Source of the DNA: a virus
Taxonomy: Duplodnaviria; Caudoviricetes
Strand: one strand, 5' to 3'
DNA: 57,881 bases
Virus record (IMG/VR): IMGVR_UViG_3300012002_000216
Location: 1 to 57,881 of that record
Positions 47,730 through 48,118 of this stretch are shown one piece after another. The notes under the pieces were generated by a model. That model was given only the letters and a program-made list of their open reading frames with translations. It made no database searches and was not told where the DNA came from. Each line of letters begins with the position of its first letter. Positions within the stretch are counted from its first letter, which is position 1. Position numbers and translations under genes: made by a program.

Positions 47730-48118
47730 TGAGTCAACTGACAGCTACATGACTCAGGGGAACGATGCGTACTGCAGCAATGCGATCGTTTGCGACCGAA
47801 AAACCCTAGCTGGATCGGGTCACCGGAGGAACAGGTGATCGTCTGCTCATACGATAGTTGAGATACACAAGTAGGGAGAATAGCCCTACTACCGAGTCAC
47901 CGGGGAATCAGGTGGAATGGATGCGGCATTGCGAGGTTAGACAACGGAGGCTATTGCGCTCCCGAAGGGTCTGCCGAAACACCTCGCACATAGCTCTGAG
48001 GCGAGAGGCACACGCGGTAAGCGAAGTGAAGGCCGAGACAGTACCATGTAGCAATAGCGAAGGGTATAAGGCGCTACACTGACTTCACTCTTCGTAGGTT
48101 CGAATCCTACCAGTGCTA
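47730..48118 (+). ncRNA. large structured non-coding RNA ending in a tRNA-like T arm and acceptor strand
   Basis: Stems TGAGTCA/TGACTCA, AACGAT/ATCGTT, GGTCACC/GGTGATC, GTAGGG/CCCTAC, TGCGAGGT/ACCTCGCA, AGTGAAG/CTTCACT, TGTAGC/GCTACA; 3' end GTAGG-TTCGAAT-CCTAC-CAGTGCT-A; GC-richer than flanks and no credible CDS. Confidence 0.7.

What the first reader, a model, noticed from the sequence alone, without database searches (positions are those of the whole stretch)
47730..48118. About 390-nt ornate RNA with a tRNA-like 3' end
Seen: a dense series of helices, a twice-repeated hairpin motif GTCACCGG(A)GGAA(T)CAGGTG (about 47819 and 47896) and a terminal T arm followed by CAGTGCT-A. That 3' strand can close an acceptor-like stem with GGCATTG (47925-47931), giving a 194-nt tRNA mimic with two large hairpin domains in place of the D and anticodon arms. 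It could instead pair with AGCATTG at 47611, giving a roughly 510-nt RNA that encloses the second tRNA-like element. Established: large ornate RNAs (GOLLD, ROOL) occur beside phage tRNAs, and tmRNA and bacterial Y RNAs carry tRNA-like domains. There is no G3:U70, so it is not an obvious tmRNA. It may be a diverged member of a known class or a new class.
Basis: partly seen in the sequence, partly recalled or inferred. Interest (0 to 1): 0.78.

Follow-up and report, generated by a model that had tools for sequence, protein, structure and literature searches.

The report
Rearranged tRNA-like genes in a phage
The supposed 390-base ornate RNA is better read as the tail of a jumbo-phage tRNA cluster, holding a second insertion-laden tRNA-like gene and a variable hairpin-rich spacer built partly from tRNA pieces, much like the unexplained small RNAs beside phage T4's tRNAs.

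Summary
The sequence features are real: a T arm plus CAGTGCT-A at 48094-48118, a twice-repeated motif, and GGCATTG at 47925. The reading as one 390-nt ornate RNA is not supported.

- Rfam gives only tRNA-type or chance hits. ARAGORN finds no tmRNA. Folding energy equals that of shuffles (z -0.27).
- A related phage in another study is identical over 47580-47887 and 47991-48142, but 47888-47990 (103 nt) is replaced by 5 nt. That removes GGCATTG and one motif copy.
- The last 127 nt (47992-48118, "B") are a paralogue of the neighbouring 118-nt tRNA-like gene "A" (47611-47728; Rfam tRNA 40.9 bits). Of 20 stem pairs, 15 are identical, 4 changed on both sides and 1 is broken.
- Neither A nor B yields a canonical anticodon arm.
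- The spacer holds a T-arm-derived hairpin and a probable tandem duplication.

Best reading: a tRNA(CUA)-A-spacer-B cluster of tRNA-derived, probably non-decoding RNAs. The closest analogue is T4 rnaC/rnaD. Function is unknown. Evidence for constraint is modest: 0 of 460 nt differ, against 14 of 789 in the adjoining stretch. No homologues could be fetched for covariation.

The parts
47140..47499 (+). PTH2-type peptidyl-tRNA hydrolase gene directly upstream of the RNA cluster
   Evidence: Pfam PF01981, E 6e-19. Relatives at 76-89% identity exist in metagenomes.
47510..47529 (+). Hairpin GGTGATC-GAAA-GGTCACC between PTH2 and the tRNA. Its stem letters recur, strands swapped, in the motif hairpin near 47817-39.
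   Evidence: Sequence and MFE of 47500-48140. No T-run, so the scan does not call it a terminator.
47531..47606 (+). Amber-suppressor tRNA, anticodon CUA
   Evidence: ARAGORN. Rfam tRNA 65.6 bits.
47611..47728 (+). tRNA-like gene A (118 nt). Perfect 7-bp acceptor, 3-bp D stem, and T arm. It carries a 41-nt insertion between the D arm and a 5-bp stem (UGGAA/UUCCA) that holds a 13-nt loop. No CCA is encoded.
   Evidence: Rfam tRNA 40.9 bits against a gathering score of 29, with 47- and 15-nt insertions. Anatomy. No canonical anticodon arm after removing any single insertion.
47729..47990 (+). Hairpin-rich spacer (262 nt here, about 165 nt in the relative)
47816..47837 (+). Motif copy 1 (CGGGTCACCGGAGGAACAGGTG). 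It can form a local 7-bp hairpin with a 9-nt loop that contains GGAGG.
   Evidence: The hairpin appears in the fold of the short variant.
47871..47889 (+). T-arm-derived hairpin GTAGG-G-AGAATAG-C-CCTAC. It has the same 5-bp stem as the T arm of B but a different loop.
   Evidence: Sequence. Pair probability 1.0 in the ensemble of 47611-48118.
47888..47990 (+). 103-nt segment present here but replaced by 5 nt in a relative from another study.
   Evidence: read laying joint 47887>47991 in run X4. Weak similarity to 47816-47876 suggests a tandem duplication (score 33; 4.3% of 300 shuffles reach it).
47992..48118 (+). tRNA-like gene B (127 nt). Acceptor AGCTCTG/CAGTGCT with one U.U mismatch. D arm GCG-AGAGGCACA-CGC. 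A 5-bp stem GTGAA/TTCAC encloses 53 nt. A 5-nt variable loop, T arm and discriminator A follow. No CCA is encoded.
   Evidence: ARAGORN relaxed run. Helix table against A. Local alignment A vs B scores 42, and 0 of 300 shuffles reach it. Rfam recognises only the T arm.
48050..48118 (+). Inner 69-nt tRNA remnant inside B. It has a second 5' half (AGCAATA, then D-arm-like GCG-AAGGGTATAAGG-CGC) that aligns with A and with tRNA(CUA).
   Evidence: Local alignments, direct repeat D1, and an antisense-tRNA-type chance hit at 48051-48118.
48132..48376 (+). Shine-Dalgarno GGGAGGAA (48132-39) and the likely GTG start (48149) of the DUF551 gene, 31 nt after B
   Evidence: Sequence. Pfam DUF551 E 1.1e-4 on ORF 48113-48376. 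No terminator between B and the gene.

Best explanation
The 390 nt are not one RNA gene. They are the distal part of a phage tRNA cluster laid out as: PTH2 gene, hairpin, amber-suppressor tRNA(CUA), tRNA-like A (118 nt), variable spacer, tRNA-like B (127 nt), next gene.

A and B are diverged paralogues derived from tRNA genes. Both keep the acceptor/T-arm minihelix, a D arm with GG and a T loop UUCGAAU. Their middle parts carry large, different insertions, so no standard 7-nt anticodon loop exists. The spacer is partly made of tRNA debris (a T-arm-like hairpin) and an internal duplication, and 103 nt of it are dispensable.

Inferred, not shown: the cluster is transcribed with its neighbours. 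RNase P, 3'-end nucleases and the CCA-adding enzyme cut and finish A and B at their minihelices. This gives stable, non-decoding tRNA-like RNAs of about 120-130 nt and separates the downstream mRNA. A trans function, such as a decoy for enzymes or nucleases that bind tRNA, is speculative.
For: 1. Known RNA classes are excluded. Rfam at gathering scores gives only two tRNA hits in the window. At E<=10 in 47400-48300 it gives 6 matches, none to tmRNA, Y RNA, GOLLD, ROOL, group I or HDV-like families. ARAGORN in tmRNA mode finds nothing.
2. A is a tRNA-like gene by Rfam's own threshold (40.9 against 29 bits).
3. B is a paralogue of A. The local alignment scores 42 against a null of 21.6 +/- 4.2, and 0 of 300 shuffles reach it. 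The last 23 nt are 91% identical. Of 20 stem pairs, 15 are the same, 4 changed on both sides, 0 on one side and 1 is broken. A perfect 5-bp stem ending 4-5 nt before the T stem occurs in 292 of 5000 shuffles for A and 440 of 5000 for B.
4. Run X4, from a different study, carries a contig identical over 47580-47887 and 47991-48142. In it 47888-47990 is replaced by 5 nt, and its 14 differences lie in 47991-48931. The 13 that are listed are all at 48143 or beyond. Binomial P is 0.0016 if none falls in the RNA block and 0.015 if one does. The indel ends one base before B starts.
5. The context is conserved. PTH2 + hairpin + tRNA(CUA) recurs in L082, where PTH2 is 55% identical.
6. No promoter or terminator consensus lies between PTH2 and the DUF551 gene on the + strand.
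7. There is a precedent. In T4, tRNA-Arg is followed by rnaD (119 nt) and rnaC (139 nt). rnaC ends in a GGTTCGAATCC T arm plus a paired acceptor, and Rfam does not score it as a tRNA.
Against: - There is no expression data. No RNA run was listed among the holders, so processing and stability are untested.
- No homologue beyond a near-identical variant could be aligned, so there is no real covariation test.
- The A/B both-sided changes may date from a time when both were ordinary tRNAs. They do not prove present function.
- B has A, not U, at position 8 and a U.U mismatch in its acceptor.
- Three alternative 5' strands can pair with its 3' strand: 47925, 47992 and 48050. My choice of stems is therefore partly subjective.
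- The insertions in A and B lie at different sites and are unrelated, as expected for decay.
- Thermodynamic folding of 47611-48118 prefers pairing 47611-17 with 48111-17 (pair probabilities 0.68-0.99) and gives about 0 for the B acceptor I propose.
- Identity with X4 could reflect recent recombination. That genome is mosaic, with about 1.5% divergence here and about 10% in the chaperonin gene.
Confidence: 0.55

Rival explanations
1. Debris without function. The stretch is a graveyard of partly duplicated and insertion-broken tRNA genes in a recombination-prone tRNA cluster. The hairpins are leftovers of tRNA arms, and nothing is selected apart from perhaps not disturbing neighbouring genes.
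For: - No canonical anticodon arm can be recovered from A or B (best scores reached by 67% and 15% of shuffles; 66% and 5.7%).
- The insertions in A and B are at different sites.
- B contains a nested second 5' half.
- The spacer holds a T-arm remnant and a probable tandem duplication.
- There is a 103-nt indel between close relatives.
- Folding energy is no better than that of shuffles.
Against: - There are 0 (at most 1) differences in 460 nt of RNA block against 13-14 in the adjoining 789 nt. Neutral DNA should change at least as fast as coding DNA.
- The T loops and acceptor pairing are intact in both A and B.
- A still passes Rfam's tRNA threshold.
Confidence: 0.25
2. One large structured RNA. 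47730-48118, or 47611-48118, would fold into a single ornate ncRNA closed by a tRNA-like minihelix, forming a new class comparable in kind to ROOL or GOLLD.
For: - In the MFE and centroid of 47730-48118, the long-range helix 47744-51/48045-52 forms.
- In 47611-48118 the ends pair with probability 0.68-0.99.
- The whole block, including 159 nt of spacer, is identical in X4.
- It lies beside phage tRNAs, as ROOL and GOLLD often do (recalled, not from a call).
Against: - There is no Rfam hit to any large RNA.
- The fold z-score is -0.27.
- The parts are recognisably tRNA-derived modules.
- No relatives appear in IMG/VR, INPHARED or the GTDB genomes.
Confidence: 0.1
3. A and/or B are real decoding tRNAs that are matured by removal of insertions. 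This would parallel the two tandem long tRNA genes of the related contig L082.
For: - In L082, deleting 46 and 43 nt from the 5' strand of the anticodon stem gives perfect anticodon arms, Thr UGU and Pro AGG. 0 and 0.2% of 500 shuffles reach that score. The trimmed L082-1 folds as a textbook cloverleaf.
Against: - The same test fails for A and B.
- Two separate removals would be needed in each of them.
- ARAGORN's Ser(GGA) model for A has a weak stem with one mismatch and one G.U pair.
Confidence: 0.07
4. A protein-coding small ORF (47858-48082, 74 codons, + strand), or a phage attachment site that copies the 3' end of a host tRNA.
For: - The ORF exists. Motif copy 2 has a Shine-Dalgarno-like run before an in-frame GTG at 47912 (sequence).
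- Temperate phages often carry 3' tRNA fragments at attP (established knowledge, not from a call).
Against: - The X4 variant replaces 103 nt with 5 nt inside the ORF, which shifts the frame, while everything else stays identical.
- No integrase was found among the 39 ORFs scanned; there is only a sub-threshold zinc-ribbon hit.
- The 22-nt T-arm/acceptor pattern of A and B occurs in none of the GTDB species genomes.
Confidence: 0.03

Closest known systems
Phage T4 rnaC (species 1) and rnaD (species 2) small stable RNAs of the tRNA cluster
   Same: - They sit directly after a tRNA gene in a phage tRNA cluster, on the same strand.
- Sizes are similar: 119 and 139 nt in T4, 118 and 127 nt here.
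- rnaC ends with a canonical T arm (CCGGG-TTCGAAT-CCCGG) and a paired acceptor-like stem, but Rfam does not recognise it as a tRNA. Its best match is tRNA-Sec at 17.5 bits, E 0.76.
- Their roles are still described as unknown (PMC3014915 and PMC9697503, passages read).
   Different: - There is no sequence similarity. The blastn of the region against 50,697 phage records hit only tRNA-type matches to the suppressor tRNA.
- Here the two elements are paralogues of each other and are separated by a 262-nt spacer.
- Expression of the T4 RNAs is proven. Expression of these is not.
Ordinary tRNA genes (Rfam RF00005), including class II tRNAs
   Same: - 7-bp acceptor, T loop UUCGAAU, D loop with GG, discriminator A and no encoded CCA.
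- A 3-bp D stem as in bacterial class II tRNAs (this last point recalled, not from a call).
- A scores 40.9 bits.
   Different: - Neither has a 7-nt anticodon loop on a 5-bp stem.
- A has 41 extra nt before the stem and a 13-nt loop. B has 10 extra nt and a 53-nt 'loop'.
- B is not found by the tRNA model apart from its T arm.
Insertion-bearing tRNA genes of the related contig L082
   Same: - Same phage group: PTH2 + tRNA(CUA).
- A tandem pair of tRNA-like genes about 115-120 nt long.
- Insertions near the D-arm/anticodon-stem junction.
   Different: - The L082 genes become perfect tRNAs once one insertion is removed. A and B do not.
- There is no sequence similarity between the insertions.
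tmRNA, bacterial Y RNA (YrlA), ROOL/GOLLD, HDV-like theta ribozymes next to phage suppressor tRNAs
   Same: - All involve tRNA-like modules or a location beside phage tRNAs.
- Theta ribozymes are reported adjacent to phage tRNAs, a fifth of which are suppressors (PMC10879173; abstract and sections 7 and 13 read).
   Different: - Rfam matches none of them in the window, even at E<=10.
- ARAGORN finds no tmRNA.
- There is no G3:U70.
- Only 13 nt lie between the two strands of the hairpin that starts after A, which is too short for an HDV-like core (my reading of the sequence).

Membership tests
tRNA (RF00005) | Covariance-model score at or above the gathering score of 29 bits | tested here: inconclusive
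   A (47611-47728) scores 40.9 bits and meets it. B is matched only at its T arm (48093-48110, 14.4 bits, E 8.8) and does not.
tRNA (RF00005) | 5-bp anticodon stem with a 7-nt loop (U33, purine 37), directly or after removing one insertion | tested here: not met
   Exhaustive single-deletion scan. The best scores for A and B are reached by 67% and 15% of 500 shuffles. With long variable arms allowed, the figures are 66% and 5.7% of 300. The positive controls L082-1 and L082-2 score the maximum (0 and 0.2% of shuffles).
tRNA (RF00005) | Acceptor/T-arm minihelix with a T loop of the UUCGAAU type, and GG in the D loop | tested here: met
   A has 7 of 7 acceptor pairs and B has 6 of 7. Both have 5-bp T stems, T loop UUCGAAU and D loops with GG.
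tmRNA (RF00023) | tRNA-like domain with G3:U70, a tag reading frame and pseudoknots, detectable by ARAGORN or Rfam | tested here: not met
   ARAGORN -m at 80% threshold finds nothing. There is no Rfam tmRNA match at E<=10. Position 3-70 is C-G in A and B. The tag frame was not examined.
Bacterial Y RNA (YrlA, RF02553) | Long Rsr-binding stem from the 5' and 3' ends plus a tRNA-like T/acceptor/D module, with an Rsr (TROVE) gene nearby | tested here: not met
   There is no YrlA match in 47400-48300 at E<=10. No TROVE domain appears among the 39 ORFs scanned, but only about 18% of the genome is in hand. A 36.6-bit sub-threshold YrlA hit in L082 spans the junction of two adjacent tRNA genes, and its long stem is unpaired.
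ROOL / GOLLD large ornate RNAs | Match to the Rfam covariance models | tested here: not met
   No match at gathering scores in the whole window or at E<=10 in 47400-48300.
HDV-like theta ribozymes beside phage tRNAs | Nested double-pseudoknot core whose cleavage site is within 5 nt of a tRNA 3' end | tested here: inconclusive
   There is no HDV-like Rfam match. By eye, no core fits after 47606, 47728 or 48118. The authors' descriptor is in a supplementary figure that I could not see, so it was not run.
T4-type tRNA-cluster small stable RNAs (rnaC/rnaD); a kind, not a homology family | Non-tRNA RNA gene of about 120-140 nt directly downstream of a tRNA in a phage tRNA cluster, with a tRNA-like 3' end | tested here: met
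   Position and size. T4 layout and the rnaC T arm/acceptor.
T4-type tRNA-cluster small stable RNAs (rnaC/rnaD) | Accumulation as a stable processed RNA in infected cells | not testable with these tools
   No RNA run was listed among the holders of this sequence.

The most novel reading that the evidence does not exclude
A, the conserved 159-nt spacer core and B work together as a new kind of phage RNA module built from tRNA parts. The two minihelices recruit RNase P and the CCA-adding enzyme. The idiosyncratic expansions and the excised spacer RNA then act on the translation apparatus alongside the linked PTH2 and amber-suppressor tRNA. One possible action is as decoys for host tRNA-cleaving defence nucleases or for tRNA-binding factors.
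Probability: 0.12. Interest if true: 0.7.

Novelty: new variant of a known kind. Interest (0 to 1): 0.35.

Why it matters
If A and B are expressed, they add a second, unrelated example to the T4 rnaC/rnaD puzzle: tRNA-like but non-decoding RNAs kept in phage tRNA clusters. Here they are linked to a suppressor tRNA and a peptidyl-tRNA hydrolase, which hints at a role in translation control or counter-defence. If they are debris, the locus is a clear case of how tRNA clusters decay and rearrange, and a warning that tRNA remnants can look like ornate RNAs to a reader.

Tried and rejected
**Searches for homologues of the RNA (all empty or uninformative)**
- blastn against 50,697 phage records: 40 records, all covering only the suppressor tRNA part of the query, and 0 covering 80% or more.
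- nhmmer of 47611-48118 against 80 IMG/VR loci around chaperonin relatives (49% identity or less): no hit at E<=10.
- Exact or degenerate DNA patterns in IMG/VR and in GTDB genomes: 0 hits.
- A pattern from the X4/L082 suppressor tRNA gave one unrelated tRNA-rich contig, L083.

**PTH2 as a handle**
- Relatives at 76-89% identity exist, but their contigs could not be fetched.
- The IMG/VR scans found none.
- The GTDB scan returned only an archaeal PTH2.
- Cultured phages with PTH2 at 37% identity or less show no tRNA neighbours in the two records examined.

**Other attempts**
- The L082 insertion motif in IMG/VR: 0 hits.
- A search of the whole L082 record was not possible because the record is not held.
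- Expression: no RNA holder was listed among the sequencing runs.
- ARAGORN with relaxed thresholds and introns produced several mutually overlapping weak models, such as Met(cat) with a 226-nt intron and Val(gac) spanning 47611-48118. I set these aside as over-fitting, keeping only the lead to the 47991/2 acceptor.
- Hand searches for a kink-turn, a bulge-helix-bulge splice motif and loop-loop pairing with the suppressor anticodon gave nothing convincing.
- TAG recoding as a reason for hidden coding: TAG ends 13 of 42 large ORFs in the window, so it is a normal stop here.

Full report
**Setting**

The window is an IMG/VR virus record of 57,881 bp that CheckV rates 18% complete, so it is a fragment of a jumbo phage. 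Sequencing runs that hold it come from microbial-mat samples.

Pfam on 39 ORFs shows:
- replication genes (primase, family A polymerase, 5'-3' exonuclease, SbcCD-like pair);
- a GGDEF protein and two NUDIX proteins;
- a tail-fibre protein with an endosialidase-chaperone domain;
- a GroEL-type chaperonin.

The finding lies in a 650-nt non-coding stretch. A PTH2-type peptidyl-tRNA hydrolase gene (47140-47499) lies upstream. A DUF551 gene lies downstream, with its ribosome-binding site at 48132-39 and a likely GTG start at 48149. No sigma-70-like promoter on the + strand and no intrinsic terminator was found between them.

**The observation**

- T arm at 48094-48110, then CAGTGCT and A;
- GGCATTG at 47925;
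- AGCATTG at 47611;
- the repeated motif at 47819 and 47896.

The stretch as a whole is not unusually structured. Its MFE is -120.7 kcal/mol against -119.3 for shuffles (z -0.27), and the other strand gives z 0.06. The pieces give z -0.55 and -0.38.

**Known families**

Rfam at gathering thresholds finds two things in the whole window:
- the amber-suppressor tRNA(CUA) at 47532-47604 (65.6 bits);
- a second 'tRNA' at 47611-47728 (40.9 bits) with 47- and 15-nt insertions. I call this element A.

At E<=10 in 47400-48300 there are six matches. They are those two tRNAs, two antisense-tRNA-type chance hits, a snoRNA chance hit, and the T arm alone at 48093-48110 (14.4 bits). Nothing matches tmRNA, Y RNA, GOLLD, ROOL, group I introns or HDV-like ribozymes. 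ARAGORN finds only the tRNA(CUA) by default and no tmRNA at a relaxed threshold.

**A natural variant splits the 390 nt**

Run X4, from another study, holds 42% of the sampled words. One 1302-nt contig from that run shows the following:
- it is identical to the window over 47580-47887;
- it carries 5 other letters in place of 47888-47990;
- it continues over 47991-48931 with 14 differences.

The 13 differences that are listed all lie at 48143 or beyond.

The proposed 194-nt tRNA mimic therefore cannot be the conserved unit.

The net change of 98 nt also rules out the 74-codon ORF at 47858-48082.

The RNA block has 0 (at most 1) differences in 460 nt, against 13-14 in the next 789 nt. The binomial P is 0.0016-0.015. 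This is modest evidence of constraint. The relative's genome is mosaic, with about 1.5% divergence here and about 10% in the chaperonin gene, so recent exchange is an alternative explanation.

**What the 3' part is**

A relaxed ARAGORN run pointed to an acceptor strand at 47991/2. Read from 47992, the last 127 nt (element B) run as follows:
- AGCUCUG, pairing with CAGUGCU (6 of 7 pairs, one U.U mismatch);
- two nt, then a D arm GCG-AGAGGCACA-CGC;
- ten nt, then a perfect 5-bp stem GUGAA/UUCAC enclosing 53 nt;
- a 5-nt variable loop, the T arm, and a discriminator A.

A has the same plan:
- AGCAUUG/CAAUGCU acceptor;
- GCG-AAACGGUAAA-CGC D arm;
- 41 nt, then UGGAA/UUCCA around a 13-nt loop;
- 4 nt, then the T arm and A.

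Of the 20 stem pairs, 15 are identical and 4 differ on both sides while staying paired. Those four are one in the acceptor, two in the 5-bp stem and one in the T stem. None differs on one side, and one is broken in B.

A and B align with score 42, which 0 of 300 shuffles reach. A perfect 5-bp stem at the right distance from the T arm arises in 5.8% (A) and 8.8% (B) of shuffles.

B starts one base after the X4 indel ends.

**Neither element decodes in any ordinary way**

I deleted every possible single insertion and scored the resulting anticodon arm.
- A and B give scores that 67% and 15% of shuffles reach.
- With long variable arms allowed, the figures are 66% and 5.7%.

The same test works on a positive control. 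In L082 the PTH2 gene is 55% identical and is again followed by a hairpin and a tRNA(CUA). L082 also carries two tandem long tRNA genes. Removing 46 and 43 nt from the 5' strand of their anticodon stems gives perfect arms, Thr UGU and Pro AGG. 0 and 0.2% of shuffles reach that score, and the trimmed L082-1 folds as a textbook cloverleaf.

With introns allowed, ARAGORN called 40 tRNAs in 83 loci plus the window. Only three are longer than 95 nt: the two in L082 and window A.

**The rest is tRNA patchwork**

- The inner 69 nt of B (48050-48118) align with tRNA(CUA) and with A. They carry a second 5' half, AGCAAUA followed by GCG-AAGGGUAUAAGG-CGCUACA.
- Three upstream strands (47925, 47992, 48050) can therefore pair with the one 3' strand.
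- The spacer hairpin at 47871-89 has the same GUAGG/CCUAC stem as B's T arm but another loop. By my own arithmetic, such a coincidence is expected fewer than 0.001 times in 260 nt.
- The twin motif marks the start of a roughly 77-nt tandem duplication. The second copy lies in the dispensable segment. Support for this is weak: score 33, reached by 4.3% of shuffles.
- In the short variant, motif copy 1 folds as a local hairpin.

**Comparison with what is known**

In T4, tRNA-Arg is followed on the same strand by rnaD (119 nt) and rnaC (139 nt). rnaC ends in CCGGG-TTCGAAT-CCCGG plus a paired acceptor-like stem, yet Rfam gives only a 17.5-bit tRNA-Sec match. Two papers still describe their roles as unknown (PMC3014915 and PMC9697503, passages read). 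This is the closest analogue in kind. There is no sequence similarity.

HDV-like theta ribozymes lie next to phage suppressor tRNAs (PMC10879173; abstract and sections 7 and 13 read). I see none here. Their descriptor is in a supplement that I could not read.

**Verdict**

The finding is a real, non-coding, tRNA-derived locus, but it is not a 390-nt ornate RNA. The most likely reading (0.55) is a cluster of tRNA(CUA), tRNA-like A, a variable spacer and tRNA-like B. A and B would be matured at their minihelices by the tRNA-processing enzymes and would not decode. The processing and any function are inferred, not shown.

The rival readings are:
- non-functional debris (0.25);
- one large RNA (0.10);
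- unusually matured true tRNAs (0.07);
- coding or attP (0.03).

The main gap is comparative data. Relatives exist but could not be fetched, and no RNA data were available.

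Noticed in passing
L082:1636-1755 and L082:1757-1871: Two tandem tRNA genes in a related phage contig each carry a 43-46-nt insertion in the 5' strand of the anticodon stem. The two insertions share a conserved 5' part with a hairpin. Removing them gives perfect tRNA-Thr(UGU) and tRNA-Pro(AGG) arms and a textbook cloverleaf. I saw no bulge-helix-bulge motif. 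This may be an undescribed kind of small tRNA insertion or intron in a phage.
   Followed up: partly
window 47140-47606; L082:4992-5466; run X4 loose end before 47580: The linkage of a PTH2 gene, a hairpin and an amber-suppressor tRNA(CUA) is conserved between the window and L082. The X4 relative has a CUA-type anticodon loop on a different tRNA 5' body, which resembles the L082 tRNA. Even so, TAG ends 13 of 42 large ORFs in the window, so the phage does not simply read TAG as sense here.
   Followed up: partly
window 15060-16232: A phage-encoded GGDEF diguanylate cyclase domain protein (Pfam E 5e-45).
   Followed up: no
window 48792-50432: A GroEL-type chaperonin gene. 91 IMG/VR stretches encode relatives, none above 49% identity, so this phage has no close relative in IMG/VR.
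   Followed up: partly
window 45000-51000 against run X4: Divergence from the X4 relative is mosaic. It is about 1.5% over 46273-46733 and 48143-48931, about 5.5% over 45162-46230, and 9-11% across the chaperonin gene.
   Followed up: no
window 47510-47529 and 47817-47839: Two hairpins use the same stem letters (GGTGATC / GGTCACC) with the strands swapped. They could therefore also pair with each other across the suppressor tRNA and A.
   Followed up: no
L082:1703-1810: A sub-threshold Rfam YrlA (Y RNA-like) match (36.6 bits against a gathering score of 69) spans the T arm of one tRNA gene and the D arm of the next. The long stem of the model is unpaired, so I take it as an artefact of two adjacent tRNAs.
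   Followed up: yes
L087:1084-1533 (Pseudomonas phage Astolliot): A gene annotated as tRNA-specific adenosine deaminase lies about 1.5 kb from this phage's PTH2 homologue. This is of interest because one of the trimmed L082 tRNAs has A at the wobble position.
   Followed up: no
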